Position numbers and translations under genes: made by a program
Origin: a bacterium
GTDB lineage: Bacteria; Patescibacteriota; Minisyncoccia; UBA6257; WO2-44-18
Direction of reading: 5' to 3'
Length of the DNA: 64,000 bases
Assembly: GCA_030646995.1 (NCBI GenBank)
Contig: JAUSKF010000006.1
Span: forward strand, 99,680-163,679
The notes under the pieces: generated by a model
What the model was told of the DNA's origin: nothing
What the model saw: only the letters and a program-made list of their open reading frames with translations
Database searches by the model: none
Part shown: in pieces, positions 2,421 through 29,936 of the stretch
Layout: every line of letters begins with the position of its first letter
How positions within the stretch are numbered: position 1 is the stretch's first letter

Positions 2421-2433
2421 CCGCCGGAGGCGG
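2421..2433 (+). promoter_or_regulatory. GC hairpin immediately 3' of VR (DGR cruciform/hairpin element)
   Basis: ccgcc-gga-ggcgg stem-loop 9 nt after the VR end and directly after the TAA stop, the position typical for the DGR hairpin. Confidence 0.5.
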
Positions 2434-2456
2434 TCAAAGACCCTTGGACCTATGCT

Positions 2457-2489
2457 CCGCAAGAGAAATCTCTTGCGGGGCTATTTTTA
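2457..2489 (+). terminator. Rho-independent terminator after DGR target gene
   Basis: ccgcaagaga-aat-ctcttgcgg perfect 10-bp stem followed by a T-run (gctattttt). Confidence 0.7.
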
Positions 2490-2696
2490 TAAACAAGAAA
2501 ATATTTTATAATTCAGAAAGACGAAACAGCCCGTGGCTACGGTTGCGGGCGGTCTGTAAGAAAATAAATAGACTCGGTGCCCTGCGCTAGGGAATTACAG
2601 ATTCCAAATGCGATACAATCCCGAGAGTATTCATCCCACACATAACAAGTTATGTGTGGGATTCAAAGGATGGTGGCTCAGGCGGCGCGGGGCACG

Positions 2697-2832
2697 AAAC
2701 GGCTCGGTCTGGCAGCACTGGAATGGCAACCGGAACGTTGCCTATCTCTGGAGCAATGCCGACAAGCGGAACCTCAATCTGAATTGGTTCGAGAACGACT
2801 GGAATGACAACTATCGTTTCCTGGCCGTCCGC
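2697..2832 (+). repeat. DGR template repeat (TR), noncoding template rich in AAC/AAT
   Basis: Counterpart of the VR; contains the adenines that are substituted in the VR; AAC-rich (NGNRN...SNADKRNLNLNWFENDWNDN in the VR frame); preceded by hairpin cccacacataacaagttatgtgtggg at 2635-2660. Confidence 0.9.
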
Positions 2833-2840
2833 TAGAATAT

Positions 2841-3182
2841 TTATTTTTTTAGCTGTTGTTTCCATCCCCCGATAATTTTGCCGATTTCGGCAAGGGGGAT
2901 AGAAATGACAGAGTATTTTTTATTATCCAAGGCTTTTATTTCCCAGGCGATCCGCAGAGACAGCTTGAGCAAGTCCAATTTTTGGCTGACTATTCTGATT
3001 GAATTACTCCGGCTTTCTTTTGAAGAGTAAATACTGAAATAAACAGCATCAACGAAATCCAGGAACTTCTCATCTATTTTGACGCCCAAGCTATAGCGAT
3101 GGAGTTTGGTGAGGTGCGGAAAATATCCGCTCCAAATTTTGTAGGCGTCAATGGATTTTTGTAAAACATCAATATGATCCAA
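2841..3182 (-). CDS. avd: DGR accessory variability determinant (Avd-like four-helix-bundle protein)
   Basis: 113 aa between TR and RT; C-terminal LAEIGKIIGGWKQQ resembles the Bordetella phage Avd C-terminus (AEVGRILGSWI) by recall; transcribed opposite to target, TR and RT; the start codon is uncertain because the first codon read from the displayed sequence is not a canonical start. Confidence 0.6.
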   Translation of the reverse strand: MDHIDVLQKSIDAYKIWSGYFPHLTKLHRYSLGVKIDEKFLDFVDAVYFSIYSSKESRSNSIRIVSQKLDLLKLSLRIAWEIKALDNKKYSVISIPLAEIGKIIGGWKQQLKK

Positions 3183-3191
3183 ATTCCGCCG

Positions 3192-3200
3192 GGGGGGGGG
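3192..3200. repeat. Poly-G (G9) homopolymer tract in the avd/RT divergent region
   Basis: Nine G at 3192-3200; lies between ATG 3174 and the RT frame; G8 would put ATG 3174 in frame with the RT. Confidence 0.9.
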
Positions 3201-3261
3201 CGTTATAGGTAGAACCCAATTCCGTCATAGTTTTGAGGATATTATTTCTGTTGAAAATCTT

Positions 3262-4188
3262 TTGGTTACTTGGCGGGAGTTCTTGAAAGGGAAGAGGGGA
3301 AAGAAAGACGTCCAGGAATTCGAGTTTAACTTGATGGATAATATTCTATCGCTTCACGAGGAGTTAGCAAGTCAGCAATACCGGCACGGTGGCTATTATC
3401 AATTCCGGATCGCCGATCCGAAACCCCGCATAATTCACAAGGCCGAAGTCAGGGATCGCCTAGCTCATCGCGCCATTCATAGATTACTATATCCGTTTTT
3501 TGATAAGACCTTCTTTGCCGACTCCTTTTCCTGCCGTGTCAAAAAAGGCACACACCGCGCGCTTAATCGTTTTCGGGCGATGGCTTATCAAGTCAGCCAA
3601 AACCATACCAAAACCTGCTGGGTGTTAAAATGCGATATCAAAAAGTTCTTTGATAGTATCAATCACGAAATTTTCCTGAAAATACTGAAAAAATATATCC
3701 CCAACCAGAAAATTATTTGGCTTTTGGAAAATGTCATAAATAGTTTCTCAACTAGATCGGGATTCGGCTTGCCTTTAGGCAATCTCACCTCCCAACTTTT
3801 CGCCAATATCTATTTAAATGAATTTGACCAGTTCGTGAAACACAAACTTAAAGTTAAGCATTACGTTAGATATGCGGATGATTTTGTAATTTTGTCAGGG
3901 GATAAACAGCAACTTGAATACCTAATTCCCAGAATCCAGGGCTTTCTCAAAGAAAATATTGGCCTCGTTTTACACCCGGACAAGCTTTTCCTGAAAACCT
4001 TTGCTATGGGGATGGATTTTCTCGGCTGGGTGCACTTTCCGGATCATCGAGTTCTGCGATCGGTTACTAAGCGGAAAATGTTTCGGAGGTTAAAAGAAAA
4101 TAACAACGAGCATTCCAGGCGGTCATATTTGGGGATGTTGAGGCATGGGAATACGGCTCTAATTAGCGGACAGGTCGTAAAGTTTTAA
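3262..4188 (+). CDS. DGR reverse transcriptase
   Basis: Motifs GNLTSQLFANIYLN and YADDFVIL closely resemble the Bordetella phage BPP-1 DGR RT as recalled (IGSLTSQLFANVY, YMDDIV); TTG start per the track; the RT frame is open from 3178 and the N-terminal homology (HSFEDIISVENLL) lies upstream of 3262 with no canonical in-frame start unless the G9 tract contracts. Confidence 0.9.
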   Translation: MVTWREFLKGKRGKKDVQEFEFNLMDNILSLHEELASQQYRHGGYYQFRIADPKPRIIHKAEVRDRLAHRAIHRLLYPFFDKTFFADSFSCRVKKGTHRALNRFRAMAYQVSQNHTKTCWVLKCDIKKFFDSINHEIFLKILKKYIPNQKIIWLLENVINSFSTRSGFGLPLGNLTSQLFANIYLNEFDQFVKHKLKVKHYVRYADDFVILSGDKQQLEYLIPRIQGFLKENIGLVLHPDKLFLKTFAMGMDFLGWVHFPDHRVLRSVTKRKMFRRLKENNNEHSRRSYLGMLRHGNTALISGQVVKF

Positions 4189-4278: not shown

Positions 4279-4932
4279 ATGGTAGTAATTCCCGGTATTG
4301 AGGGCGCGGATGCTGAGTCCGTCAAAGAGCAATATGAAAAAGTTAAAGATCTTAATCCAGAAGGCTGGGTGCATTTGGATATCACTGATGGGAAGTTTTC
4401 TCCGGCAGTGAATTGGGGCTCCCCCGCGGAGCTGTCTTCCCTAGTCGCTAGTCGTAAGTCGCTAAGTACTAAGTTTGAACTGCACTTGATGGTGGAAGAA
4501 GTGGAAAAAGTTCTGGATGGCTGGCTGAAGACCGGTTTAGTGAAGCGCGTCATCGTTCACCTTGAGGCGATGACCGATCCGGTATTTGTGGCGGCAAAAT
4601 GCAAAGAATATGGCGTTGAGCCAATGCTTTCAATCAAGCCGGAGACTGAAGTGGAGGGGTTGTTTGCCCACAAAGATGACTTCCGCTCTTTTCAGGTACT
4701 GGCGGTGGCTCCCGGTTGGGCGGGGCAGAAGTTTGGGGAGGAGGCTTTAAAGAAAATCGCATGGATAAGAGAAAAAATTCCGAATGCTATAATAGAAATA
4801 GACGGCGGAATTAATCCTGAAACCGCCCGTAAATGCTTTGAAGCGGGAGGGAGCGTGCTGGTTTCTACTTCTTATATCCAGAATAGCCCCGACCCCAAAG
4901 AAGCCTATAATTCGTTAGTCGTTAGTCGTTAG
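4279..4932 (+). CDS. rpe: Ribulose-phosphate 3-epimerase
   Basis: VHLDITDGKFSP, HLMV and IEIDGGINPET motifs of the Rpe TIM barrel; contains an internal tagtcg-type repeat insertion (LSSLVASRKSLSTK) and ends inside a heptamer tandem repeat. Confidence 0.85.
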   Translation: MVVIPGIEGADAESVKEQYEKVKDLNPEGWVHLDITDGKFSPAVNWGSPAELSSLVASRKSLSTKFELHLMVEEVEKVLDGWLKTGLVKRVIVHLEAMTDPVFVAAKCKEYGVEPMLSIKPETEVEGLFAHKDDFRSFQVLAVAPGWAGQKFGEEALKKIAWIREKIPNAIIEIDGGINPETARKCFEAGGSVLVSTSYIQNSPDPKEAYNSLVVSR

Positions 4933-4958
4933 TCGTTAGTCGTTAGTCGTTAGTCGTT
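4914..4958 (+). repeat. Heptanucleotide tandem repeat (GTTAGTC)x6 spanning the rpe stop and the rpe-tkt spacer
   Basis: Six perfect 7-bp units at 4914-4955 plus a degenerate unit; related degenerate copies at 4438-4470 (inside rpe) and 35323-35348 (inside pth). Confidence 0.9.
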
Positions 4959-4963
4959 ATCTT

Positions 4964-16092: not shown

Positions 16093-17559
16093 CTTTTCTA
16101 CGTGGTTAGAGCATCCGCCCCGTTTGATATTTCGAAATTTCGATATATTGATATCGGAACCTCGACCGGGGCGGGTGTTTTATTCAGTAGGCTCGCGGAA
16201 TTATCCGCAAGCGCTTCCGGAAAAACATGGCGACTTTGATAAGTGAATAGTTTCTTAAAAAAACTAGCATCTATTTTTTAAGAAGCGGCATCCTGAAAAG
16301 GAGATAGCTCCCGGTCGCGATGCTAGATATTTTCTTTCTAGCTCGAGGCGCGACGACGAAGGCGTGGTCTGTTCTACGCCAAGGAGGAGCAACAAAGAGA
16401 TAAAAGAAAATATCAGCATCCATTCGGTTGTTGCTAAAATTTCATATCGCTTTGTCATTCCTCCTAGCAATAGAATCTATTGCTGCGTCGTCATTTCTCG
16501 CGAATATAAAATTTTCGCTAACAACGCGACGGTGATTATCTCCTTTTTAGGATGCAAACCAAGAATCATATTTCGACGAGTCATTTCGGCTCGGTCGGAA
16601 ATCTACCAAAAGAGTCAAAAATTTTGTAGTTGTCCCAATTTATTCTTGTTTCGAGCAATGAGATAAAACTTATTGTTTGAAACTTATTAATGAGGATTTG
16701 ATCCTGGTCCAGGATGAACGCTGGCGGCGTGGATAAGGCATGCAAGTCGAACGGAATATTTTTTGAAGAAGTTGAGATTATATCAATGCAACGGATGAAA
16801 ATATTTAGTGGCGAACGGGTTAGTAACACCTTAGTACATACCTCAAAGTCGGGGATAGCCATTCGAAAGAGTGAGTAATACCCGATGGTCTCGCAAGAGT
16901 AAAGTCGCAAGACGCTTTGAGATTGGCTTAGGTCTGATCAGCTAGTTGGTGAGGTAATGGCTCACCAAGGCTATGACCAGTAGGGGGATTGAGAGATTGT
17001 TCCCCAACGAGGAAACTGAGACACGGTTCCTACTCCTACGGGAGGCAGCAGTCGAGAATATTCGACAATGGACGAAAGTCTGATCGAGCGACGCCGCGTG
17101 GAGGATGAAGGTCTTCGGATTGTAAACTCCTTTTCTACAGCAAAAAGTTATTGATTACTGTAGGAATAAGACGCTGCAAACTTCGTGCCAGCAGCCGCGG
17201 TAATACGAAGGCGTCAAGCGTTATCCGGATTTATTGGGTGTAAAGAGTGCGTAGGGGGTTTTGTGCGTCTGTTGTTAAATGTCACCGCTCAACGGTGTCG
17301 CTGCAATGGAAACGGCAGAACTAGAGGGGGCTAGAGGCTAATAGAACACATGGTGTAGGGGTGAAATCCGTTGATATCATGTGGAATACCAAAGGCGAAG
17401 GCATTTAGCTGGGGCCTTCCTGACCCTTAAGCACGAAAGCGTGGGGAGCAAAAAGGATTAGATACCCTTGTAGTCCACGCCCTAAACGATGCAGATTAGC
17501 TATTTCGAGTATCGACCCTCGGAGTGGCGTAGCTAACGCGTTAAATCTGCCACCTGGGA

Positions 17560-17591
<32 letters not shown>

Positions 17592-17715
17592 AGACGGGGA
17601 CTCGCACAAGCGGTGGAACATGAGGTTCAATTCGACGGTAAACGAAAAACCTTACCAGGGTTTGAAATGCACTTGAAGACCAGCAGAAACGTTGGTCGTC
17701 TCTCAAGGACAAGTG

Positions 17716-17747
<32 letters not shown>

Positions 17748-18065
17748 CTTTGAAGTGTTCCCTTAAGTGGGTTAACGAGCGCAACCCCTATCCTGTGTTT
17801 TATATGTCACAGGAGACCGCCGTGTTTAACACGGAGGAAGGCAGGGATGACGTCAAATCCGCATGGCCCTCTGATACCCTGGGCTACACTCGTGTTACAA
17901 TGGCCGGTACAATGGGCTGCCAAACCGCAAGGTGGAGCAAATCCCATCAAAACCGGCCCCAGTTCAGATTGGAGGCTGCAACTCGCCTCCATGAAGCCGG
18001 AATCGCTAGTAATCGTGGGTCAGCTATACCACGGTGAATACGTTCTCGAGTCCTGTACTCACAAG

Positions 18066-18925
18066 AATCGCGCACAGCAGGTTATGAAGCTAAGTCGTTC
18101 AAATCGACTCCTCCGAACGAGATCGGAGCGTAGCTGAAGGATAGTCGCCAATCGCGAGAGAGGCGGCAGAAGGATCCGAAAGCAAAGAGCAGTCCCGTTA
18201 AATCCGCCAGTTGGCGGACAGCCGCCGAGCCATGGTTGGGTGGTGAGCATGGCGAAGGCAAGTGCAAGCTGTAATGGGAATGTTCGGAAAAGTCTTATAA
18301 CTTACCTGTGGAGATCTGATATTGTCCTTGACGCAGCGTCAGGGTATAATGAAATTAACGCAATATCAGAAGTCAGCTGGGTCGTAGTATTCCGACGTAT
18401 AACGTCGGAGGAAGGACCCACTCAATGAAATGCTTACGAAAGATTACATAGTTGGTTTAGTAGATGGCGAAGGGAGCTTTACGGCTTACATTCGCGATCA
18501 AAGCAAGCCAACTAAGGTCAAAAGGAGAGTTAAGGTAGAGCCAAGGTTTTATCTGAAGCTAATCGAGAAAGATAAACCAGTACTAGATGAGTTAAAGAAA
18601 TTCTTTAATTGTGGGAATGTCTATTTTCAAAAAGACAATCGCGCAAATCATCAGCATTGCTATCGCTTCGAAGTAGCCAACAGGAAAGACCTTACTGAAA
18701 TAATTATTCCGTTTTTCAAGGAAAATCAATTGAAGTTCCCTTCCAAAAGAAAGGATTTCAAGATTTTCTGCGATTTAATGAGGAGGATTAATAAAGGCGA
18801 ACACTTAACTTCGGAAGGCTTGAGTAATCTTTATAGGATTAAGCAGCAAATGCATTGAGCTCGCGTAGTGCGGGAAATCCGCTCGCTACGTGGGAACATC
18901 AATTCTTTATTTCAAAGAAAATAAT
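18066..18925 (+). mobile_element. Intron/insertion in 16S rRNA carrying a LAGLIDADG homing endonuclease gene (boundaries approximate)
   Basis: 16S homology breaks after ...cctgtactcacaag at about 18065 and resumes at cgcccgtca at 18926; aatcgc is present at both borders. Confidence 0.75.
18430..18858 (+). CDS. LAGLIDADG homing endonuclease (intron-encoded)
   Basis: IVGLVDGEGSF motif; 142 aa; lies inside the 16S insertion. Confidence 0.85.
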   Translation: MLTKDYIVGLVDGEGSFTAYIRDQSKPTKVKRRVKVEPRFYLKLIEKDKPVLDELKKFFNCGNVYFQKDNRANHQHCYRFEVANRKDLTEIIIPFFKENQLKFPSKRKDFKIFCDLMRRINKGEHLTSEGLSNLYRIKQQMH

Positions 18926-20024: not shown

Positions 20025-20294
20025 GTTTGTTCCCGTATTTAACAGAGCGAATCGGCATTTCTTTGTAAGGAACCACAAGGGGAGGCTAGCCCAAAATAAT
20101 GAGTGCAGGGCAGATTTTTGGTTAAAAAATTGAATGGCCGGAAAATCCCGAAGGGAGGAACGGGAGCCGTTCAATTTATCCCAAAAATCAACCGGAGTGA
20201 ATATATTTTTTCTAGCCGTACCGGGTTCCTGAAAGAAATGCCGATGAGCCTTGTGGATAATCGGGAGTGGCTTTTTAATCGGCGAAATAAGATA

Positions 20295-21516: not shown

Positions 21517-23232
21517 ATGGTCCAAATCCCCGACGATAAATTAAAAGAGATATTGGTAAAAGACGGCGTAGTAAGCGCCGCTGATTTTGATTCGGTAGCC
21601 AAAGATTCTAAGAGAATGGGGCAATCGGTGGCGCAGATTTTGGTTTCGAGAAATTTCATTAAGCCAGGATACTACAACGGATTGTTGGCTAAATATTTTG
21701 GCGTGGAGCCGGCGAATCTTTCTAGTCAGACAATTGATGAGGCGGCGTTGCGCTTATTAACCGAAGACCTCGCTCGCCAGAAAAAAGCAGTTATTTTTAA
21801 GCGCGACGAAGACGGGGCTTTGAATGTGGCGATGAGTGATCCGACTGACCTCGCTACGATTGAATTTCTCGCAAGCCGACTAGGCGCGCGCATCAAGCCA
21901 TATTTGGCCACCGATGAAGATTTGAAAAAGGGTTTTGCTGTTTATGGCAGAAAATCGGCGGATGACTTCCGGAAGATTATTGAGGAAAATGTGCAGGCAA
22001 CTTTGCGCGCCGAAATAGGTGGAAAGGTGGAGAAAGATGCGGCGCAAGAAGTGCCAGTGGTGGCTATCGTGGATAACTTGGTTTCTTATGCAATCGCCAC
22101 GCGAGCTTCCGATATTCACATAGAAATCTTGGAAGACGCAGTGTTGGTGCGCTATAGGATTGACGGCATTTTGCATGAAATTAGTAAAATTCCGAAAGAA
22201 GTTCATTCATCAATTTTAGCGAGGCTGAAATTGCTGGCTGGTCTACGCCTCGACGAACATTCCAAGCCGCAAGACGGACGCTTCCGCTATCAAGCGGGTG
22301 GGGATTTGATTGATATCCGCGTTTCAGTGATACCGACTTTTTACGGAGAAAAAGTGGAGATGCGCTTGCTTTCATCCACTACCCGCGCGCTTTCTTTTGA
22401 GGAGCTTGGAATGTTGCCGGACACGATTAAAACTATTCAGGAAAATACTTCTAAGACTTACGGCATTGTGTTGGTTACCGGTCCGACCGGTTCTGGAAAA
22501 AGTACCACGATTTATTCAATGTTGAGTGTTTTAAACAAACCAGAAGTGAATATTTCTACCATTGAAGATCCGGTTGAGTACGATATGAAATATATTAACC
22601 AGACGCAGGTGAATGAGGCAGCAGGCATTACTTTTGCGAATGGTTTGCGGGCGCTCCTTCGCCAAGACCCGAATATCATAATGGTGGGTGAGGTGCGCGA
22701 CGGTGAGACGGCGGAAATCGCCGTGCAGGCGGCCTTAACCGGTCACTTGGTGCTTTCAACTTTACACACCAACGATGCCGCTTCCGCTATTCCACGCTTG
22801 TTTGATTTGAAAGTAGAGCCATTTTTGGCGGCGGCGGTTTTAAATGCGATTCTTGCTCAGCGTTTGGTGCGGCAGATTTGCCCTGACTGCATTCAGTCTT
22901 ATCCGGTCACTCCAGAAATTGTGAAGATTATTCAGGGCCAGTTTAAGTCATTGGGTATTGAAGGGGAGTATAAGCCGCCGAGGGCAATGTTTAAGGGAAA
23001 GGGTTGCGCTACTTGTGGGAACATTGGCTACAAGGGGCGAATCGCTATTTTTGAAGCTTTCAGCGTGGATGAATCTTTGCGTAATCAAATCGTGGATTCT
23101 AAATTCACTTTGGACCTATTAAGGAAAGAGCTCCGGAAAAAAGGATATGTGACGATGTTTGAAGATGGGTTGCGGAAAGTTGCCAAGGGTATGACCACGA
23201 TTGAGGAGGTGTTGCGCGTTATTAGAGAATAG
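21517..23232 (+). CDS. pilB: Type IV pilus assembly ATPase PilB (GspE family)
   Basis: Walker A GPTGSGKST, Asp box, Walker B and CxxC...CxxC tetracysteine (CPDC...CATCG). Confidence 0.9.
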   Translation: MVQIPDDKLKEILVKDGVVSAADFDSVAKDSKRMGQSVAQILVSRNFIKPGYYNGLLAKYFGVEPANLSSQTIDEAALRLLTEDLARQKKAVIFKRDEDGALNVAMSDPTDLATIEFLASRLGARIKPYLATDEDLKKGFAVYGRKSADDFRKIIEENVQATLRAEIGGKVEKDAAQEVPVVAIVDNLVSYAIATRASDIHIEILEDAVLVRYRIDGILHEISKIPKEVHSSILARLKLLAGLRLDEHSKPQDGRFRYQAGGDLIDIRVSVIPTFYGEKVEMRLLSSTTRALSFEELGMLPDTIKTIQENTSKTYGIVLVTGPTGSGKSTTIYSMLSVLNKPEVNISTIEDPVEYDMKYINQTQVNEAAGITFANGLRALLRQDPNIIMVGEVRDGETAEIAVQAALTGHLVLSTLHTNDAASAIPRLFDLKVEPFLAAAVLNAILAQRLVRQICPDCIQSYPVTPEIVKIIQGQFKSLGIEGEYKPPRAMFKGKGCATCGNIGYKGRIAIFEAFSVDESLRNQIVDSKFTLDLLRKELRKKGYVTMFEDGLRKVAKGMTTIEEVLRVIRE

Positions 23233-23266
23233 GACGGTCCGGCTCTTTTTCTCGGACACAGAATAA

Positions 23267-23293
23267 CCGGCCTCCTGCGGGCCGGCTTTCTTC
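23267..23293 (+). terminator. Rho-independent terminator after pilB
   Basis: ccggcc-tcctgcg-ggccgg hairpin followed by ctttcttct. Confidence 0.7.
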
Positions 23294-23387
23294 TCCCTCG
23301 GCAGTTGTTCGTTCGTGGACTATATAACGAACGAGCCAAGCCCAACCGCCTCCGGCATGTTCCTTGAAAGAGAGTCGCCTCGCTTTG

Positions 23388-23409
23388 CCACTTTCCCGCG
23401 GGAAAGTGG
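23388..23409. promoter_or_regulatory. Palindrome ccactttcccgcgggaaagtgg (operator-like; family of three)
   Basis: Perfect 22-bp palindrome; related to 28061-28082 and 28567-28594; no T-run follows, so it is not a terminator. Confidence 0.5.
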
Positions 23410-23443
23410 ATTACTGTGGATAAGACCTCAATACCCCCCCCTC

Positions 23444-23451
23444 GTATTTAA
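23444..23451. repeat. Poly-C (C8) tract in the promoter region of the giant surface-protein gene
   Basis: Eight C immediately upstream of a TATAAT at 23464-23469, occupying the spacer/-35 position. Confidence 0.85.
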
Positions 23452-23513
23452 GATATAATTTCTTTAAGGCTATTTATAGCTAAAAACTCCATGAGATTTT
23501 TCCGTTTTCCATC

Positions 23514-23524
23514 GGGGGGGGGGG
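23514..23524. repeat. Poly-G (G11) tract inside the signal-peptide coding region of the giant surface-protein gene
   Basis: Eleven G; ATG 23491 (MRFFRFPSGGG...) is out of frame with the 1496-aa ORF at G11 and in frame at G10. Confidence 0.9.
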
Positions 23525-23557
23525 CGCCTAACTGTTCTTATATTTCTCAGTCTTTTT

Positions 23558-26500
23558 TTGGTTTCTCCAAGTCATTTATTTGCCAGAGAAACTATTGTTG
23601 CGGTTCCGGTAATTAACCCGTCTGTCATTGCGAGCGAGGCAAAGCAATCTAACACCATCATCGCCAGGTCAGTTGAGGTTTATCCCACCGCCAATCTTTT
23701 TGATAGTTTTCTTAGCGTTTTTCAAAATATTAGGGAATCGATACAGAATTTTGCTGTATCACTAATTAACCTAGCCAATCCCAAAGTTCCGGTAAGTACC
23801 ACTCCTCCACCCATACGAATTGTTGCTGTTCCCGTGTCTGCGACGCCCCCGGCTCCATCTGTCATTGCGATCCGCCAGCCGGCGGAGAAGCAATCTAACA
23901 TTGATGTGGTAAAATCCGTCTCCGCCCCCACGCCGCAGATAATATATATCCAACAACCTGCTCCGACCGGTACCGTAGGAGTCTCTTCCCAGTCCCAGTT
24001 AGATTCTTTGACTGCTGACCTGCTCGCCTTCAAAAAATCTCAGCAGGCCACGACCGAAAATCTGCAATACAATATGGGTCTAATGAGCCGCATCAGCTCT
24101 CTCGGCCCAGTCGGCAGCAATCCTCTTACAATTTCCAATCCAACATTCGCCGGATCTATTACGGGCATTGAAGACGGCGATATTCCCGACGACATCACCG
24201 CTTCCAATTACCTTTTGCGCGCCGGAGGTGAGCTCAGCGGCAACCTCACTATCGCGGGTAATCTCACAGTTGCCGGCGCGCAAATTTTGGGGGGAGGTGG
24301 TGGTTCCAATCCTTTTAGCCTTGGCGGCTCCTCCGCGCAGGGGACTTTAATTTTGGGAAATGGCACCACTGCTTCTTCTACGATTTCCGGCGAATACGGC
24401 AGGTTAGGTTTTGGTTCCACTTCTCCTTATGCCCAATTCTCCATTGAGGCCGTCCAGGGCGTAGTCGGTTCTTCCACCCCCGTCTTCGTTATCGGAGACA
24501 CAGGCTCTTCTTCTCTGCTCGTTGTCTCCGGAATCAATGGAGACGTCGGCATTGGCACCAATACTCCCGGAGCCAAATTGGATGTGGGAGGCTTTGCGAA
24601 TATCAAGGGGAATCTGAATATCTCCGCTACCTCCACTGCCGGTTCCTTTGTCGCCACTTCCACTTTGAGTGTCGGAACTTCAACTCCCGGAACGAATACC
24701 CAGCTGACGGTCCAGGGCAACTCCTATTTTACGGACGGATTATCTGTTGGCATCGCCGCCACAACTACCTCTGGATCCATCGCCAGCATTTTGCAATCGG
24801 CTGGAACTTTCTACGGCTCCGGAGTCGGCACTTCCTCATTTGAAGGAGGTATCAATGTGAAAGCCAACGGGGGAATTACTTCGGCTTCGGGATTAATCGT
24901 ATCGGCGGGAAAAGTTGGTATTGGAACGACGAATCCGTCGACGGTTTTAGATGTTCTGACGCCTGGTGGCTACCGATTGCTTTTCACGGACGACGCCAGC
25001 GCTTTCCAGATAACGGGTGTGAACTCGGGTATTACTGATAACGTTCCCTTGAGGATACAGGGTACTGATTTACGTTTTTATACAAATAGTGGTGGAGCGC
25101 AGGAACGACTTCGCATAACAACAGCTGGCAATGTTGGTCTTGCCCGAACCAGCCCAGATACTCTTCTTGATCTCGGGCGGGCGGGCGACGTGACCACTCG
25201 AGATTTAAATATTATTGGCTCTGACTTGAATATCGGCAACGGCATCCTCGCTACCTCCACTCTTTCGGGAGAATATGGAAAACTCGGTCTCGCTTCCACT
25301 ACTCCCTGGGGTCAGTTCTCCATTGAAGTCTCCGGAGTTCCCGGCTCCACCACTCCCGTATTCGTTATCGGCGACTCCGGCACCTCTTCCCCAATCTTCA
25401 TCGCCAACGTCAATGGAAGAATCGGTATCGCCACCAACACCGTGGATCAATATGGAGTTCTGGGTATCGGATTATCTGTGGCAACCTCCACATACATTGA
25501 AGGAGGATTGGGAGTGGGCGTTGCTACTTCTTCTGCCGGCGGTTTGTTCGTCAAAGGATCTGCAGATATTTATGGCGGACTAATTGTACGTGGCGGTAAA
25601 GTGGGCATTGGTACGACAAATCCGGGGTCAATATTAGAACTTAATTCTAATGAGCCAGTATTGCGAATGACAACCGGTGCGCCCGGAGGACAGTGGGATC
25701 TTATTGGCGGCAATGGGGTCGGTGTAGCCGTTGGTGATTTTGTTATTTTCAATGCTGGATACGGCAACACACCGTTTAGGATCATAAACGACGCAGGAAA
25801 CTTGAATAATAATGCGTTTATAATAAAAGGTGGCAATATCGGTATCGCTACTACCGTTCCAGGAACAAAATTGGACGTCCACGGCTTCGCCAATGTCGCC
25901 GGTAATTTAACTGTTTCTGCTACGACTACCACCGGATCCCTGATTGCCACCTCTACTTTAAGCGTAGGCACTTCCACGCCCGACTCCTTAGTTCAGTTCG
26001 CAGTTGGTGGAAATTCATATTTATCCGGCGGTCTTTCCGTCGGTCGCTCCGCGACGACTACCAACGGCGCCTTGATGGCGGGAGCTATTGATGGCACCAC
26101 TTTGAATCTCTCCGGCCGATTGGATTCAATCTTTACCGGCACCTCCACATTTGCGGGAGGGGTTTCTGTCGCCGGATTGGCTTCATCAAATGGATTGAAT
26201 GTAACAGCAGGAGATTCAGTTATCGGTCCGCTAAAAGTTGGGACGGCGGCGATTACGTCGACGGTGAGATTTTTTGGCGCTGACGGATCGACAGCCGCCC
26301 CCACATACGGATTTTCGTCCCGTACCGATGCTGGTATGTATAACGTTGGTAACGGGGAAATTGGGTTGGTCGGACAAGGCTCTCTGGAGGTTCGCATTTC
26401 ATCGGGGTCGGTTCAGATTGGGTCGGGAACCTTTTTGAATTTCGGGGGCACCACCGGATGGAAATATATCGCCGCTGCAAATATTCGGCAGGGAAACTCC

Positions 26501-28048
26501 TCCTCCGCCACCCCCATCGACCAGATATTCACCCTCGGCGAAGCGAGCAGGCCGGGGACGGATACTAACATTAGTGGTGCGACTGGAACGATTCAGAGCG
26601 GTCTAGGCACTGGGATTGGAACTGAATCATCGCTTATTTTTCAGACTCCAACATTGGCCGCTTCGGGTAGCGGAGTACAAACGTATGCAACGAGATTGAC
26701 TGTCGGTTCGGCAACTTCAACCTTCACGGGAGCCTTAACTGTGGGTGGTAGCGTCGGCATCGGCACCACGACCCCACGGGCAATGTTAGGTATCGCGGCG
26801 GGTAGCTCCACTCCCGGCCTTATGATTCAGACCGAGGGCAATACCGGGCAGGGAGCAATAGCAATCGTTGTCGATGCAAATGCTAACTGTAAAGACGGAG
26901 AATCAAACGGGGCCTGCGCTCTGAACGACTTGGCTGAGTTGTATCCAGTGTCCGAACCTCTGGAGAAGGGAGATATCGTGATGTTTGATGGTGGAGCGCC
27001 CGTTCATATAAAGAAAGCGACTAGTCGGAATAGTTTAGCTGGCGCAATCTCTACTTCTCCGGCCATCGTCTTTGAAGGCTCGATGATCAAAACAATGGGT
27101 GGAGTTTACGAGTGGAAAGGGAATACCGCTCCCCTCGCTCTTTCCGGTCGTGTGCCGGTGAAGGTTTCTCTAGAAAATGGCCCAATTCATATTGGCGATC
27201 CGATAACCGTGTCTTCTACTACTCCGGGCGTTGGCGTTAAAACCATCACCTCCGGCAAGATTATCGGTTATGCCCTTGATGATTTGCTAACCGCCACTAC
27301 TGCTCCAAATTCTTTTGATAAAATCCTCGTTTTCGCCAATCTCTCGCATTGGCAAAATCCGGATGAAATCTTAGAACCGTCTTCAACGTTTATTCAGAAA
27401 ATTATTGAGGCAATAACTGACTGGCTAAAGACTGCCGTTGTTACCATTAAAGAATTAGTCGTTGATAAGCTGACGAGCAAAGAAGTTAATACCGATAAAC
27501 TTTGTGTCGGCGCCACCTGCATTACCGAGAATCAACTGCAGGCATTGCTAAACCAAAATTTACCCGTCGCGGCGGGTGTGAACGGCGGAAATAGTCCTCC
27601 TCCCGCGCCATCGCCAACTCCCGCTCCTGAATCGGCCCCCGACACCGATGCGCCGGTGATTACTTTGAACGGATTGAATCCGACCGAGATTGAAATAGGA
27701 GCGGTATATTCGGATATGGGCGCCAATGTTACCGACAACGTAAACAGCAATCTTGGTTATAAGGTCAGCTTGGATGGTGGCCCGGAAACCTACCCCCAAG
27801 AGATGGAATTGGATACTTCCATGGCTGGCGAACATATCCTAATTTTTATTGCGATTGACCAAGCGGGGAATCGCGGAACCGCCTCAAGAGTAGTGAGGGT
27901 TGTGAATCCGAACGCTCCTAGCCCAGAACCGGAACCTAGCCCTTTTCCGGAACCCAGCCCCACCCCCGAACCTTCTCCAGCTCCCGAGCCATCCCCAACT
28001 CCTAGTCCCGCTCCCGAACCCATTCCTGCGCCCGAACCCGAACTTTAG
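23558..28048 (+). CDS. Giant secreted/surface protein (1496 aa) with fibre-like Gly/Thr/Ser repeats, Ig-like domain and Pro-rich C-terminal tail; probably phase-variable
   Basis: TTG start per the track and no in-frame ATG for about 170 codons; repeated KVGIGTTNP..L(D/E) units; region resembling the C-terminal modules of phage tail fibres (family not identified); C-terminal PEPSPTPEP repeats; located inside the type IV pilus locus. Confidence 0.75.
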   Translation: MVSPSHLFARETIVAVPVINPSVIASEAKQSNTIIARSVEVYPTANLFDSFLSVFQNIRESIQNFAVSLINLANPKVPVSTTPPPIRIVAVPVSATPPAPSVIAIRQPAEKQSNIDVVKSVSAPTPQIIYIQQPAPTGTVGVSSQSQLDSLTADLLAFKKSQQATTENLQYNMGLMSRISSLGPVGSNPLTISNPTFAGSITGIEDGDIPDDITASNYLLRAGGELSGNLTIAGNLTVAGAQILGGGGGSNPFSLGGSSAQGTLILGNGTTASSTISGEYGRLGFGSTSPYAQFSIEAVQGVVGSSTPVFVIGDTGSSSLLVVSGINGDVGIGTNTPGAKLDVGGFANIKGNLNISATSTAGSFVATSTLSVGTSTPGTNTQLTVQGNSYFTDGLSVGIAATTTSGSIASILQSAGTFYGSGVGTSSFEGGINVKANGGITSASGLIVSAGKVGIGTTNPSTVLDVLTPGGYRLLFTDDASAFQITGVNSGITDNVPLRIQGTDLRFYTNSGGAQERLRITTAGNVGLARTSPDTLLDLGRAGDVTTRDLNIIGSDLNIGNGILATSTLSGEYGKLGLASTTPWGQFSIEVSGVPGSTTPVFVIGDSGTSSPIFIANVNGRIGIATNTVDQYGVLGIGLSVATSTYIEGGLGVGVATSSAGGLFVKGSADIYGGLIVRGGKVGIGTTNPGSILELNSNEPVLRMTTGAPGGQWDLIGGNGVGVAVGDFVIFNAGYGNTPFRIINDAGNLNNNAFIIKGGNIGIATTVPGTKLDVHGFANVAGNLTVSATTTTGSLIATSTLSVGTSTPDSLVQFAVGGNSYLSGGLSVGRSATTTNGALMAGAIDGTTLNLSGRLDSIFTGTSTFAGGVSVAGLASSNGLNVTAGDSVIGPLKVGTAAITSTVRFFGADGSTAAPTYGFSSRTDAGMYNVGNGEIGLVGQGSLEVRISSGSVQIGSGTFLNFGGTTGWKYIAAANIRQGNSSSATPIDQIFTLGEASRPGTDTNISGATGTIQSGLGTGIGTESSLIFQTPTLAASGSGVQTYATRLTVGSATSTFTGALTVGGSVGIGTTTPRAMLGIAAGSSTPGLMIQTEGNTGQGAIAIVVDANANCKDGESNGACALNDLAELYPVSEPLEKGDIVMFDGGAPVHIKKATSRNSLAGAISTSPAIVFEGSMIKTMGGVYEWKGNTAPLALSGRVPVKVSLENGPIHIGDPITVSSTTPGVGVKTITSGKIIGYALDDLLTATTAPNSFDKILVFANLSHWQNPDEILEPSSTFIQKIIEAITDWLKTAVVTIKELVVDKLTSKEVNTDKLCVGATCITENQLQALLNQNLPVAAGVNGGNSPPPAPSPTPAPESAPDTDAPVITLNGLNPTEIEIGAVYSDMGANVTDNVNSNLGYKVSLDGGPETYPQEMELDTSMAGEHILIFIAIDQAGNRGTASRVVRVVNPNAPSPEPEPSPFPEPSPTPEPSPAPEPSPTPSPAPEPIPAPEPEL

Positions 28049-28060
28049 TTTATATTTACC

Positions 28061-28082
28061 CCACTTTCACGCGTGAAAGTGG
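28061..28082. promoter_or_regulatory. Palindrome ccactttcacgcgtgaaagtgg (copy 2; also a terminator-like hairpin)
   Basis: Perfect palindrome within ccccactttcacgcgtgaaagtgggtgggg followed by ttatttt; lies between the giant gene stop and the end of the trpR-like gene. Confidence 0.6.
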
Positions 28083-28094: not shown

Positions 28095-28541
28095 TTAATC
28101 CCTATCCCCCATTACCCCGATTCCTTTTTGCAGGAAAGGTTTAAACACGATTGCTAGCGCAGCCACCGCGTCTAAAAGATTAATATTTTTCTTCTCCGCA
28201 TTGATCGCCAAGGAGGAATACCTTCTTTTCCCCTGCCCAAATCTGGCGCTCTGATAATGCCCAGTTTTACGAAAAGCGACTTTCTTGATCGCGCTAACGG
28301 TGGATGACGATATCCATAAAATCTCCCCGATCTCTTTATAAGACTTGCCCTGACTGACCAAAACCAATACCGCCAATCTTCGCAATAGCATTTTTTTCTC
28401 TTGCGAGCACAATAAACTTTCGAGAAGGTTTTTTGCATTTTGTTTTGATCCCATTTTCAGGATACTATCTAGCAACTCCTCCCACAAAACTTCTTGCCAC
28501 TCCTCCGCTGCCTTGCCCCTTAGATGTTCTGGTTTATTCAT
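28095..28541 (-). CDS. TrpR-like DNA-binding protein (YerC/YecD family)
   Basis: HTH LLRRLAVLVLVSQGKSYKEIGEILWISSSTVSAIKK typical of the TrpR/YerC family; flanked on both sides by the palindrome family. Confidence 0.65.
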   Translation of the reverse strand: MNKPEHLRGKAAEEWQEVLWEELLDSILKMGSKQNAKNLLESLLCSQEKKMLLRRLAVLVLVSQGKSYKEIGEILWISSSTVSAIKKVAFRKTGHYQSARFGQGKRRYSSLAINAEKKNINLLDAVAALAIVFKPFLQKGIGVMGDRD

Positions 28542-28566
28542 TTTTTTTATTAACTGTAATTATACA

Positions 28567-28594
28567 CCCCTACTTTCACGCGTGAAAGTAGGGG
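28567..28594. promoter_or_regulatory. Palindrome cccctactttcacgcgtgaaagtagggg (copy 3), about 26 nt upstream of the trpR-like start
   Basis: Same 18-bp core ACTTTCACGCGTGAAAGT as copy 2; sits in the promoter region of the regulator gene, so an autoregulatory operator is a candidate. Confidence 0.55.
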
Positions 28595-28727
28595 TGATGA
28601 GGACGAAAGGCCTGCCTACCGGTTTACCCGCCTATGGAGGGCAGGCAGGGATTTTATTAATTCAATTAGGCTGATTTGTTACGCGTACCAGACTTATAGA
28701 AATTAAGTGGAATGGTATAATTAAAGG

Positions 28728-29936
28728 ATGAAGTTTTCCTATAAAGCCGCTGATGCGGCCGGAAAGGTAGTAGAAGGCTCTATAGACGCCGAGAATACCG
28801 GGGATGTGTTGGCGTCTTTAGCTGCTAAGGGATTACGGCCTATTTCTGTTAGCGCTGAAAAAACCGTTGAGCGGAAATCTCAAAGTATTTTTGGCCAGTC
28901 AATTAATGTTACCGATAAAATTTTCTTAACCAGATATTTGGCATTGATGTTGCGGGTAGGGACTGATCTTTTTAAAGCTATCAATATTTTGATTGCTAAT
29001 TTTGATAAAGCGATTGTAAAGTCCCTTCTTTTGGAAATTCGCACTAACTTGGAAAAAGGCCAGCCGTTCTATCAGACCTTCGCTGCTTACCCGAAATATT
29101 TTTCTCCGGTATTCGTAAATTTAGTAAAAGCCGGTGAAGCTTCGGGAAATTTGCAAACAGTTTTTGAAGATTTAAGCGTAAATTTAGAAAAAGAGCACGA
29201 GTTGCAGAGTAAAATCCGCTCCGCTCTTATCTATCCGGTTATTTTGTTTGTTCTGTCATTATTCGTGTTGTTGTTCCTCGTGAGTTTCGCTTTGCCTCGT
29301 ATCGCTTCAGTATTTCAAGGAGGAGGGTTCGATCCGCCGTTGTTTTCTAAAATAGTATTCACTGTCGGATTGGCGATTGGCAACAACATTGCGATTATTT
29401 TAGCTGTGCTGGCAGTAGTAATATTTGGCGGCTGGATATTTATCGCCAAGACGTTGGCCGGAAGGCGATTTGTGTCGGCTTTGCTGAACGTGTTGCCGGT
29501 GGTTAAGACGGTGGTTTATAAAATTGCTCTGCAGAGGTTCGCGGCCACCTTGAGTTCTCTGATGGGAGCTGGATTGCCTATCTTGGAATCTTTGAACATT
29601 ACCGCCGATGCGGTGGTGCATCCGGGGATTCAAGATGCCTTGCGTCGAGTCGCTAAAGATGGAGTAACAAAAGGTTTGAGTTTGGGAGAGGCTTTCAGCC
29701 GAGAACCGATCTTCCCGCCGGTGGTAGTGAATTTGGTGGCGATCTCGGAAAAAGCCGGGCATCTCGACCAGGTCTTGAAAACTTTAGCGGATTTTTATGA
29801 TTCCGAGATTAGCGCGGCGGTGAAGAATCTAGTGGCCTTCATCGAGCCGTTATTGTTGGTCTTAATTGGTGGCGTTATCGGTTTAATCGCGCTTTCGATT
29901 CTCGTTCCGATTTATCAGCTCGTTACGCAATTCTAA
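28728..29936 (+). CDS. pilC: Type IV pilus assembly platform protein PilC (GspF family)
   Basis: Two GspF-type domains and three TM segments; 402 aa. Confidence 0.85.
   Translation: MKFSYKAADAAGKVVEGSIDAENTGDVLASLAAKGLRPISVSAEKTVERKSQSIFGQSINVTDKIFLTRYLALMLRVGTDLFKAINILIANFDKAIVKSLLLEIRTNLEKGQPFYQTFAAYPKYFSPVFVNLVKAGEASGNLQTVFEDLSVNLEKEHELQSKIRSALIYPVILFVLSLFVLLFLVSFALPRIASVFQGGGFDPPLFSKIVFTVGLAIGNNIAIILAVLAVVIFGGWIFIAKTLAGRRFVSALLNVLPVVKTVVYKIALQRFAATLSSLMGAGLPILESLNITADAVVHPGIQDALRRVAKDGVTKGLSLGEAFSREPIFPPVVVNLVAISEKAGHLDQVLKTLADFYDSEISAAVKNLVAFIEPLLLVLIGGVIGLIALSILVPIYQLVTQF

What the first reader, a model, noticed from the sequence alone, without database searches (positions are those of the whole stretch)
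23440..23600. Giant surface protein gene has a promoter poly-C tract and a poly-G tract that puts its ATG-initiated signal peptide out of frame
The 1496-aa ORF has no in-frame ATG for about 170 codons; its first ATG is at about 24073. An upstream ATG (23491) encodes MRFFRFPSGGG, then runs through G11 (23514-23524) in another frame and stops after 41 codons. With G10 it reads MRFFRFPSGGGRLTVLIFLSLFLVSPSHLFA-RE... This has a charged N-region, a hydrophobic core and an AxA-like cleavage site, and it is fused to the giant protein. A C8 tract (23444-23451) sits in the -35/spacer region upstream of a TATAAT. Together these are hallmarks of slipped-strand phase variation at both the transcriptional and translational level of a large adhesin-like protein in a pilus locus.
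Basis: partly seen in the sequence, partly recalled or inferred. Interest (0 to 1): 0.75.

Follow-up and report, generated by a model that had tools for sequence, protein, structure and literature searches.

The report
Poly-G switch in giant surface-protein gene
In an uncultured ultra-small (CPR/Patescibacteria) bacterium, a run of eleven G's sits in the signal-peptide part of a huge, phage-tail-fibre-like surface protein gene and knocks it out of frame by one base, which looks like a classic slip-prone ON/OFF switch but has not been seen switching.

Summary
G11 (23514-23524) separates ATG 23491 from the 1496-codon ORF. G10, G7 or G13 would give a 1518-aa protein with a good Sec signal peptide. 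The C8 tract is at 23434-23441, not 23444-23451.

Relatives of the protein begin with in-frame signal peptides of the same layout and have no homopolymer. The annotated TTG start (23558) would cut the hydrophobic core in half. An independent Logan assembly also gives C8 and G11, and A/T runs in the window cause no frameshifts, so a miscount is unlikely but not excluded.

No other dataset carried this locus, so tract-length variation, the defining test, could not be made. Best reading (about 0.55): a slipped-strand translational switch, caught OFF.

The gene is not a conserved pilus component. With a divergent HTH gene it forms a 5.45-kb insertion between pilB and pilC that close relatives lack. 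The protein is tail-fibre-like and not PilC/PilY1-like. The promoter C8 role is plausible but weak.

Side finding: the window's only other long G run (G10, 3191-3200) lies between the avd and RT genes of an active DGR. 55 of 68 related DGRs carry G7-G12 at that spot, and 4 carry GT or GA repeats instead.

The parts
21517..23232 (+). pilB (GspE/PulE-type type IV pilus ATPase). Its stop codon marks the left edge of the insertion.
   Evidence: Pfam T2SSE E=5e-121. Homology to relatives L164-L166 ends at 23232/23233.
23267..23285 (+). Terminator-like hairpin followed by a T-rich tail after pilB, so the giant gene needs its own promoter.
   Evidence: Terminator scan.
23389..23408 (.). Palindrome P1 (CACTTTCCCGCGGGAAAGTG). 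One of three copies found only in the cassette. Candidate operator for the cassette's HTH protein.
   Evidence: 3 matches in 64 kb, 0 expected.
23415..23423 (-). TTATCCACA (DnaA-box-like 9-mer), 30 nt upstream of the -10. The same 9-mer sits at the same distance upstream of the homologous gene in L082.
23434..23441 (+). C8 tract between P1/9-mer and the -10. It overlaps the expected -35 and upstream spacer. Possible transcriptional tuning site (inferred).
   Evidence: Identical in the Logan contig L001.
23454..23459 (+). TATAAT, the likely -10 box, 31 nt upstream of the ATG. The spacing is the same in L082, and many genes in the window have a TATAAT close to the start and no Shine-Dalgarno sequence.
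23491..23493 (+). ATG, the natural start codon of the giant protein.
   Evidence: N-termini of relatives.
23514..23524 (+). G11 tract in the n-region of the signal peptide (Gly-Gly-Gly). ON at G7/G10/G13 and OFF as assembled.
   Evidence: Same length in L001.
23491..23616 (+). 41-codon dead-end reading frame produced by the G11 allele.
23495..28048 (+). Open frame of the giant tail-fibre-like protein. Annotated in GenBank from TTG 23558 as MDO8467267.1, 1496 aa. With G10 it would give 1518 aa and a signal peptide cleaved after Ala (23582-23584).
23624..23649 (+). In-frame small palindromic element GTCATTGCGA...AAGCAATC (VIASEAKQS). The homologue P0007 has the same element in frame.
23861..23895 (+). 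Second in-frame copy of the same element (VIAIRQPAEKQS). The Logan contig L001 breaks inside it.
26678..27697 (+). Conserved C-terminal module (aa 1041-1380). The beta-rich core resembles phage cement/beta-tulip proteins and pre-mature phi29 gp12. Probably a divergent Peptidase_G2-type auto-chaperone.
   Evidence: core pLDDT 70-92; Foldseek E about 1e-3; weak Pfam hits in 6 of 14 members.
27659..27901 (+). Bacterial surface Ig-like domain (DUF5011).
   Evidence: Pfam PF16403, E=2.9e-7.
28062..28081 (.). Palindrome P2 (perfect) between the stop codons of the convergent giant and HTH genes.
28095..28541 (-). HTH regulator gene (Trp-repressor/LuxR/sigma-70 region 4-like), part of the insertion.
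   Evidence: Pfam. Absent from relatives.
28571..28590 (.). Palindrome P3, directly upstream of the HTH gene's TATAAT (28560-28565, minus strand), over its -35 position.
28728..29936 (+). pilC (T2SSF platform protein). Homology to relatives resumes at 28673-28727, the right edge of the insertion.

Best explanation
What it is. The window comes from an uncultured Patescibacteria (CPR) genome. Its nearest PilB is 69% identical, from Candidatus Harrisonbacteria. A 5.45-kb lineage-specific cassette is inserted between pilB and pilC. It carries a giant (about 1518-aa) secreted protein resembling a phage tail fibre or appendage, and a divergent HTH regulator gene.

Shown from sequence and homologues: the giant gene's natural start is ATG 23491, and its Sec signal peptide is MRFFRFPSGGGRLTVLIFLSLFLVSPSHLFA|RE. 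The three glycines of the n-region are encoded by a G tract. At G11, the assembled state, the ribosome leaves the tract in the wrong frame and stops after 41 codons, so no exported protein is made (OFF).

Inferred by analogy, not observed here: slipped-strand mispairing during replication gains or loses one G at high frequency. G10 or G13 restores the frame (ON), so a population keeps ON and OFF cells for a large exposed protein that is probably a target for phages, hosts or predators. The sampled population is mostly OFF.

Weakly inferred: transcription starts from a -10-only promoter (TATAAT 23454) that probably depends on a factor bound at the cassette-specific palindrome and/or the TTATCCACA box upstream. 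The C8 tract between these sites and the -10 could tune promoter strength when its length changes.
For: 1. Frame arithmetic. The hydrophobic core LTVLIFLSLFLV is already in the giant ORF's frame, upstream of the first in-frame start codon. The annotated TTG start would therefore bisect a signal peptide.
2. Relatives begin with in-frame signal peptides of the same design and have no homopolymer. P0007/L082 has MISRKKATFLVIGSLLLGLVFILSFKALA|KEE. P0130, P0137 and P0129 are similar. Most complete family members have an N-terminal hydrophobic segment.
3. The protein is extracellular in character. It has a DUF5011 Ig-like domain, tail-fibre-type GNVGIGTT repeats, homologues annotated as tail fibre or hemagglutinin, and a beta-tulip/phi29 gp12-like C-terminal module.
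4. G runs >=10 are far beyond chance and rare in relatives: 5 G/C runs >=9 in 1.27 Mb of related CPR loci.
5. The 1496 codons downstream of the frameshift are intact.
6. An independent Logan assembly of SRR13727527 reproduces C8 and G11, and G10 at the DGR. The A/T runs of 7-8 nt that I checked sit in ORFs that are still intact or with full-length domain matches, or in intergenic DNA.
7. The same genome and its relatives use such tracts elsewhere. At the DGR avd/RT junction, tract length varies between relatives. L084 and L085 are 100% identical over 386 flanking nt and differ only in the tract.
8. Known precedent: Neisseria pilC has a poly-G tract in its signal-peptide region that gives frameshift phase variation (PMC13017665).
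Against: - No tract-length polymorphism was observed at this locus. Only one sample carries it, and both assemblies show the OFF length.
- Scans of JGI metagenomes and IMG/VR found no other copy.
- Nothing is known about slippage rates or mismatch repair in this organism.
- A consensus OFF state is also what a recent inactivating mutation or a one-base consensus error would look like.
- The homologue in L082 works without any tract, so the tract is not required for the gene.
- For C8: no recognisable -35, and the length is not beyond chance.
Confidence: 0.55

Rival explanations
1. Consensus miscount. The true tract is G10, the gene is simply ON, and G11 is a homopolymer error shared by both assemblies because they used the same reads.
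For: Both long G runs in the window (3191 and 23514) look one G too long for their upstream ATG, which could reflect a systematic bias. The Logan contigs may derive from the same run as the MAG.
Against: Two different assemblers agree at both tracts. None of the A/T runs of 7-8 nt that I checked is associated with a broken ORF, so this is not error-prone long-read data. At the DGR, most relatives start RT downstream of the tract, so the 'one too long' inference there is not compelling. Even if true, a G10 tract in a signal peptide remains a slip-prone site.
Confidence: 0.12
2. Recent, effectively permanent inactivation. The strain-specific cassette is being lost, and the +1 G is an ordinary frameshift at a mutational hot spot with no adaptive switching.
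For: The cassette is accessory and absent from close relatives. The consensus is OFF.
Against: There is no further damage in 1496 codons. The promoter, palindromes and HTH gene are intact. An 11-nt G run is itself hard to explain without selection. The mutation is reversible by the same mechanism that made it.
Confidence: 0.12
3. Recoding rather than DNA switching. The G11 allele is expressed at a low level because RNA polymerase slips on the C11 template, or the ribosome shifts +1 on GGG GGG GGG. The tract would then set a fixed low expression level.
For: A homopolymer longer than the RNA-DNA hybrid allows realignment. All-G codons allow perfect re-pairing in the +1 frame. Both follow from general knowledge of slippery runs; no tool result bears on this.
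Against: There is no stimulatory element: no stop or rare codon follows the run (GCG CCT), and folding of the region is not better than shuffles (z = -1.65). By my recollection, transcriptional slippage is best documented for A/T runs. This reading does not exclude DNA-level switching.
Confidence: 0.1
4. The gene starts at TTG 23558 as annotated, and the protein is made without a signal peptide. The tract would lie in the 5' UTR, as it does for most RT genes of the related DGRs.
For: GenBank annotation MDO8467267.1. In 43 of 56 DGR relatives the tract is upstream of the RT start.
Against: TTG 23558 falls inside the hydrophobic core. The product would begin MVSPSHLFARE and could not be exported, although the family is extracellular and its relatives have signal peptides. 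The frame is open for 21 codons upstream of the TTG, and those codons encode exactly the missing h-region.
Confidence: 0.03

Closest known systems
Neisseria gonorrhoeae/meningitidis pilC1/pilC2 (poly-G tract in the signal-peptide coding region; frameshift phase variation)
   Same: A G homopolymer lies inside the signal-peptide coding part of a large surface protein gene, next to type IV pilus genes. ON/OFF is decided by tract length modulo 3 (PMC13017665).
   Different: There is no sequence or domain relationship: no PilC/PilY1 domain, and the protein is tail-fibre-like. The gene is an insertion in the pilus operon and not a conserved pilus component. Switching has not been observed here.
Campylobacter, Helicobacter and Neisseria contingency loci (poly-G/C tracts in surface-structure genes)
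   Same: Intragenic G/C tracts of about 8-13 nt near the 5' end of genes for exposed structures, often found OFF in genome sequences (PMC8355987, PMC5084427, PMC2823697).
   Different: Those are host-associated Proteobacteria/Campylobacterota with measured switching rates. This is a groundwater-type CPR bacterium, for which my literature searches found no report of SSR phase variation.
Bordetella pertussis fim2/fim3/fimX promoter C-stretch
   Same: A C tract lies between an activator-binding element and the -10 box. In fimX, C7 versus C8 changes transcript level about fourfold (PMC1891110). Here C8 lies between a cassette-specific palindrome plus 9-mer box and TATAAT.
   Different: No activator is known here, no -35 or transcription start is mapped, fim2 and fim3 tracts are longer (10-18), and no variation has been seen. 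The resemblance is in layout only.
Listeria monocytogenes inlA 5' poly(A) tract, and homopolymeric tracts at 5' ends of genes in general (Orsi et al. 2010)
   Same: A 5' homopolymer gives a very short truncated product (8 aa for InlA) and reverts at about 1000 times the point-mutation rate (PMC2831843). The logic is the same as the 41-codon dead end here.
   Different: That case is poly(A), not poly(G), in a Firmicute pathogen, and it was tested experimentally.
Phage phi29 gp12 pre-neck appendage and other tail fibres with intramolecular chaperone domains (Peptidase_G2/S74)
   Same: The family is annotated 'tail fiber domain-containing'. The C-terminal module gives fold hits to pre-mature gp12 (3suc) and to beta-tulip cement proteins, and weak Peptidase_G2 IMC hits.
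   Different: This is a cellular, signal-peptide-bearing protein. The matches are weak (Foldseek E about 1e-3; Pfam below the curated cut-off). Autoproteolysis was not tested.

Membership tests
SSR-mediated translational phase-variable (contingency) gene | Homopolymer or short repeat long enough to slip (usually >=7-8 G/C) inside the ORF | tested here: met
   G11 at 23514-23524. Runs >=11 are expected 0.03 times per window.
SSR-mediated translational phase-variable (contingency) gene | A +/-1 unit change toggles between the full-length ORF and early termination, and the downstream ORF is intact | tested here: met
   G7/G10/G13 give 1517-1519 aa. Other lengths stop after 12-42 codons. 1496 codons are open.
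SSR-mediated translational phase-variable (contingency) gene | Tract length polymorphic within populations or between closely related strains | not testable with these tools
Only one sample carries the locus. Pattern scans of JGI metagenomes and IMG/VR gave 0 hits. Typed-sequence protein searches did not even return P0005, so they are uninformative.
SSR-mediated translational phase-variable (contingency) gene | High-frequency reversible switching of the phenotype | not testable with these tools
   The organism is uncultured. This needs time-series deep sequencing or a reporter assay.
SSR-mediated translational phase-variable (contingency) gene | The gene encodes a surface-exposed or surface-modifying product | tested here: met
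   Restored Sec signal peptide, DUF5011 Ig-like domain and tail-fibre-like family.
Promoter homopolymer transcriptional phase variation (Bordetella fim, Neisseria porA/opc type) | Tract located between the -35 (or an activator site) and the -10 of a mapped promoter | tested here: inconclusive
   C8 ends 12 nt upstream of TATAAT and lies 10 nt downstream of the 9-mer box. No -35 is recognisable and no transcription start is known.
Promoter homopolymer transcriptional phase variation (Bordetella fim, Neisseria porA/opc type) | Tract length varies and changes transcript level | not testable with these tools
   C8 is the same in both assemblies. There are no other copies.
Type IV pilus tip adhesin PilC/PilY1 | PilC/PilY1 C-terminal beta-propeller domain, and a conserved position among the minor pilin genes | tested here: not met
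   Pfam finds only DUF5011. The gene is absent from syntenic pilus loci of close and distant relatives.
Tail-fibre-like proteins with a C-terminal intramolecular chaperone (Peptidase_G2/S74) | Recognisable IMC domain with its autocleavage site | tested here: inconclusive
   The window protein scores Peptidase_G2 E=0.04-0.05, below the cut-off. 6 of 14 aligned relatives score, the best at 5.7e-5. The fold hit to 3suc has E=1.7e-3. PF13884 is present in many homologues but not in this protein.
Diversity-generating retroelement (side finding, 1794-4188) | RT gene, accessory Avd, and a TR/VR pair differing only at TR adenines | tested here: met
   RVT_1 E=7.6e-25 and bAvd E=2e-10. In the TR 2700-2833 versus VR 2285-2418 alignment, every mismatch falls at a TR adenine.

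The most novel reading that the evidence does not exclude
Simple-sequence repeats may be a general contingency device in this CPR clade. They would control accessory surface proteins (G11 in the giant gene) and also the mutagenic machinery itself. A G7-G12 tract, or in four cases a (GT)n or (GA)n repeat, is conserved at the head-to-head junction of the avd and RT genes in about 88% of 68 related DGRs. It often lies inside the first codons of avd (M-P-P-P...) or of RT. It is frequently out of frame, and it differs between otherwise identical contigs. If so, targeted hypermutation by DGRs would be under stochastic ON/OFF control by a second, untargeted hypermutable element. I found no description of this arrangement in the literature.
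Probability: 0.4. Interest if true: 0.8.

Novelty: new member of a known kind. Interest (0 to 1): 0.55.

Why it matters
CPR/Patescibacteria are thought to live attached to other cells, and their giant surface proteins and pili are prime candidates for host contact. How they vary these structures is known mainly through DGRs.

A homopolymer switch in a signal peptide would add classic contingency-locus behaviour, so far studied in pathogens, to this uncultured radiation.

It also has a practical side. The GenBank annotation starts the gene at an internal TTG and hides both the signal peptide and the switch. Similar cases are probably mis-annotated in many MAGs. Tract lengths in metagenomic reads could be used directly to measure ON/OFF ratios in nature.

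The side finding of a conserved repeat at the DGR avd/RT junction could make regulation of DGR activity testable.

Tried and rejected
1. Tract-length comparison in other datasets.
- An exact-flank pattern with a variable G count found nothing in JGI metagenome contigs or IMG/VR.
- Exact-protein look-ups found the locus only in one Logan sample, at the same tract lengths.
- Look-ups of the RT, Avd and DGR target proteins with my chosen start codons were not on record.

2. Orthologues in related genomes.
- 80 PilB loci from GTDB species representatives contain no orthologue next to pilB.
- Three Logan relatives with >=90% identical PilB lack the cassette altogether.
- So no orthologous tract exists to compare.

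3. Protein searches with the restored N-terminus returned little, and not even P0005, which shares 138-298 identical residues. I treat them as uninformative, not as evidence of absence.

4. RNA structure. C8 and G11 are complementary and are predicted to pair around the start codon, but the fold is not better than shuffles (z = -1.65). The likely transcription start lies between them. Not pursued.

5. DnaA idea. The TTATCCACA box suggested DnaA regulation, and I guessed that ORF 48036, which has the same box upstream, was dnaA. It is RNase Y. The box is left as an unexplained promoter-proximal motif.

6. The G9 tract found downstream of pilB in L010 is simply in frame inside pilC. It is not a parallel case.

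7. Rfam found no RNA family in the region.
Full report
**1. Observation**

- Reading 23200-24200 and listing homopolymers confirms G11 at 23514-23524, ATG at 23491 and TATAAT at 23454-23459.
- The ATG frame ends after 41 codons (ORF 23491..23616).
- The giant ORF is listed from TTG 23558 to 28048 (1496 aa). Its frame is open from 23495, and its first in-frame ATG is at 24074.
- Changing the tract in silico shows that G7, G10 and G13 fuse the ATG to the ORF (1517-1519 aa). Every other length stops after 12-42 codons.
- The window has only three G/C runs of 7 or more: C8, G11, and a G10 at 3191-3200.
- Under a first-order Markov model, runs >=10 are expected 0.13 times per window (two observed, P about 0.003). 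Runs >=8 are expected 1.8 times. So the G tracts are real features, and C8 alone is not remarkable.

**2. Organism and locus**

- The window carries a 16S rRNA gene. Its PilB is at most 69% identical to any GTDB species representative. The nearest are Candidatus Harrisonbacteria and other Paceibacteria-like Patescibacteria.
- The ORF is GenBank MDO8467267.1 ('hypothetical protein Q7S83_03975 [bacterium]'), annotated from the TTG, on a 169-kb MAG contig.
- Neighbouring genes are type IV pilus genes: a pilin-like gene, pilB, pilC and further pilins.
- In 80 related genomes pilB has no such gene next to it.
- Three Logan contigs whose PilB is >=90% identical (about 80% at DNA level) have pilB followed directly by pilC, or by one unrelated small ORF.
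- Homology to the window stops at 23232/23233 and resumes at 28673-28727.
- The giant gene and the divergent HTH gene (28095-28541, minus strand) are therefore a 5.45-kb lineage-specific insertion and not a conserved pilus component.

**3. Where the gene starts**

- The hydrophobic core of the proposed signal peptide (LTVLIFLSLFLV) lies downstream of the tract. It is already in the giant ORF's frame, but upstream of the first in-frame start codon. The annotated TTG encodes a leucine inside that core.
- The best collinear homologue, P0007 (37% identity in the best segment, collinear from the N-terminus), was fetched with its DNA (L082). It begins ATG-MISRKKATFLVIGSLLLGLVFILSFKALA|KEE, in frame and without a homopolymer.
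- An exhaustive HMMER search with the N-terminal 228 residues found further relatives. Their N-termini have the same plan: Met, basic residues, a hydrophobic run, then Ala followed by Lys, Ser or Glu (P0130, P0137, P0129). They align with the restored window N-terminus.
- Most complete family members have an N-terminal hydrophobic segment. SecA is encoded in the window.
- Genes in this genome rarely have a Shine-Dalgarno sequence and often have a TATAAT shortly upstream of the start. That fits TATAAT 31 nt upstream of ATG 23491. L082 has the same 31-nt spacing.
- I conclude that ATG 23491 is the natural start and that the G11 allele is frameshifted.

**4. What the protein is**

- Pfam finds only a DUF5011 surface Ig-like domain (aa 1368-1448) and a Pro-rich tail.
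- The 120 listed homologues are giant CPR proteins, several named tail fibre domain-containing, hemagglutinin or DUF5011. Many carry PF13884.
- The region aa 1041-1380 is a module conserved across the family.
- Its AlphaFold core (pLDDT 70-92) matches phage cement/decoration (beta-tulip) proteins and the pre-mature phi29 gp12 appendage, at E about 1e-3.
- 6 of 14 aligned relatives give weak Peptidase_G2 IMC hits.
- The protein is therefore a secreted, tail-fibre/appendage-like fibre. It is not PilC/PilY1-like.

**5. Is G11 an error?**

- A Logan contig assembled independently from SRR13727527 is 100% identical over 659 nt, including C8 and G11. Another reproduces the G10 at 3191.
- The A/T runs of 7-8 nt that I checked lie in intact ORFs or in intergenic DNA. 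So this is not homopolymer-error-prone data.
- The two assemblies may share reads, so a consensus miscount cannot be excluded.
- I could not test heterogeneity. The flank pattern with a variable G count has no match in JGI metagenomes or IMG/VR. No other sample carries the cassette.

**6. Promoter**

- pilB is followed by a terminator-like hairpin.
- Upstream of TATAAT there is no recognisable -35.
- A 20-nt palindrome (CACTTTCACGCGTGAAAGTG, up to 2 mismatches) occurs exactly three times in 64 kb, all inside the cassette:
  - 23389-23408;
  - 28062-28081, between the two convergent stop codons;
  - 28571-28590, over the -35 position of the HTH gene's own TATAAT.
- It is a plausible operator for the cassette's HTH protein (Trp-repressor/LuxR-like).
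- An exact TTATCCACA lies 30 nt upstream of the -10 both here and in L082.
- C8 lies between these sites and the -10. This is the layout of the Bordetella fim 'C-stretch', where C7 versus C8 in fimX changes transcript level about fourfold (PMC1891110).
- This makes a transcriptional role possible, but nothing here tests it.

**7. Mechanism and rivals**

- The best-supported reading is a slipped-strand translational switch caught in the OFF state.
- Shown: the anatomy, the natural start, the secreted nature of the product, and the non-random tract.
- Inferred: slippage, reversibility, and any selective role.
- Rivals are a consensus miscount (true G10), a recent permanent frameshift in an accessory cassette, expression through transcriptional or ribosomal slippage, and initiation at the annotated TTG.
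- The last is very unlikely, for the reasons given in section 3.

**8. Comparison with known systems**

- The closest analogue in design is Neisseria pilC, whose poly-G tract lies in the signal-peptide sequence and gives frameshift phase variation (PMC13017665).
- The proteins are unrelated, and the defining PilC/PilY1 features are not met.
- More generally, this is the architecture of Campylobacter, Neisseria and Helicobacter contingency genes (PMC8355987, PMC5084427, PMC2823697) and of the Listeria inlA 5' tract (PMC2831843).
- Searches for phase variation or homopolymeric tracts in CPR/Patescibacteria found no such report. One paper describes a hypervariable repeat gene in a Gracilibacterium (PMC6851277).
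- Verdict: a new member of a known kind.

**9. Side finding that bears on the interpretation**

- The only other long G run (G10, 3191-3200) lies in a complete DGR:
  - target gene 1794-2420;
  - VR about 2285-2418;
  - TR about 2700-2833;
  - bAvd on the minus strand, 2841-3182;
  - RT up to 4188.
- Every TR/VR mismatch falls at a TR adenine, so the element has been active.
- The tract sits between the divergent avd and RT starts.
- I fetched 80 metagenomic loci with RTs 58-80% identical. Of 68 non-redundant loci with enough upstream DNA:
  - 55 have G7-G12 at this spot (mode G10);
  - 4 have (GT)n or (GA)n instead;
  - 1 has C8 and 1 has G6;
  - 7 have nothing.
- On the RT strand, the start codon is downstream of the tract in 43 of 56 loci. 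It is upstream and in frame in 7. There is no in-frame start in 6, including the window, which would need G9.
- On the avd strand, 19 loci have their only in-frame start upstream of the tract (several read ATG-CCCCCCCCC, M-P-P-P). 10, plus the window, start after it. 27 have no in-frame canonical start.
- L084 and L085, from two different wells, are 100% identical over 386 flanking nt and differ only in the tract (G9 versus GGTG8).
- What is conserved is the repeat nature of the site, not its sequence. That pattern points to a mutable switch for DGR expression.
- I found no description of this in the literature.
- It also shows that such tracts change length in this clade, which indirectly supports the main interpretation.

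**10. Scores**

- Interest is 0.55. This is a clean, probably mis-annotated contingency-type locus in an unusual lineage, but it follows a textbook mechanism and lacks the decisive heterogeneity data.
- The most novel reading not excluded is SSR control of several loci, including the DGR itself. I give it about 0.4 probability.

Noticed in passing
window 1794-4188 (G10 at 3191-3200); loci L005 and L084-L163: A complete DGR: target gene, VR 2285-2418, TR 2700-2833, bAvd on the minus strand, RT. All TR/VR mismatches fall at TR adenines. A G10 tract sits exactly between the divergent avd and RT starts. Of 68 related DGR loci from metagenomes, 55 carry G7-G12 at the same spot, 4 carry (GT)n or (GA)n, 1 has C8 and 1 has G6. 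In many loci the tract lies inside the first codons of avd or RT and is out of frame. L084 and L085 are identical over 386 flanking nt and differ only in the tract. This is a candidate SSR switch for DGR activity. I found no description in the literature.
   Followed up: partly
window 4912-4959: A perfect heptanucleotide repeat (TCGTTAG x 6.9) lies between a TATAAT (4906-4911) and the ATG (4964) of the transketolase N-terminal subunit gene, overlapping the 3' end of rpe. The Logan contig L083 ends inside it. It is another slip-prone repeat, here in the leader of a housekeeping gene.
   Followed up: partly
window 23389-23408, 28062-28081, 28571-28590: The 20-nt palindrome CACTTTCACGCGTGAAAGTG occurs three times in the window, only inside the inserted cassette: upstream of the giant gene's promoter, between the two convergent stop codons, and over the -35 of the HTH gene's promoter. 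Probably the operator of the cassette's HTH regulator.
   Followed up: partly
window 23415-23423, 20252-20260, 47985-47993; L082 5898-5906: The exact DnaA-box-like 9-mer TTATCCACA lies upstream of the giant gene (30 nt from the -10, the same distance as in the homologous locus L082), upstream of the pilin-like gene, and upstream of the RNase Y gene. Near-matches (1 mismatch) are about twice as frequent as expected in the window (28 versus 12). Function unknown.
   Followed up: partly
window 23624-23649 and 23861-23895; L082 6160-6230: Small palindromic elements (GTCATTGCGA...AAGCAATC, translated VIASEAKQS / VIAIRQPAEKQS) sit in frame inside the N-terminal region of the giant protein. The homologue P0007 also has one in frame (VIASKAKQSKEIATSDR...). 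They resemble repeat elements seen as odd peptides in many MAG proteins. The Logan assembly breaks in the second copy.
   Followed up: no
window 16686-18858: A 16S rRNA gene (1429 nt matched to the 1533-nt model) is followed by a group II intron D1-D4 hit (18350-18417, at the threshold) and a LAGLIDADG endonuclease ORF (18430-18858). This suggests intron or homing-endonuclease sequences associated with the rRNA operon, as is common in CPR.
   Followed up: no
L005 3248-4615: In this related MAG the DGR RT ORF is 455 aa and continues about 120 aa beyond the RT, into a region that reads like a response-regulator receiver domain (by eye). The avd there appears frameshifted. Not checked with Pfam.
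   Followed up: no
proteins P0133, P0138, P0139, P0145, P0027, P0029, P0047, P0085 and others: A subset of the giant tail-fibre-like family starts with a conserved cytoplasmic-looking motif (...KYIS.K.A.E..GY..DYIGQLCR.GKI...GR.W.V...S...Y) followed by a transmembrane segment, instead of a signal peptide. This looks like an HTH-like N-terminal anchor domain.
   Followed up: no
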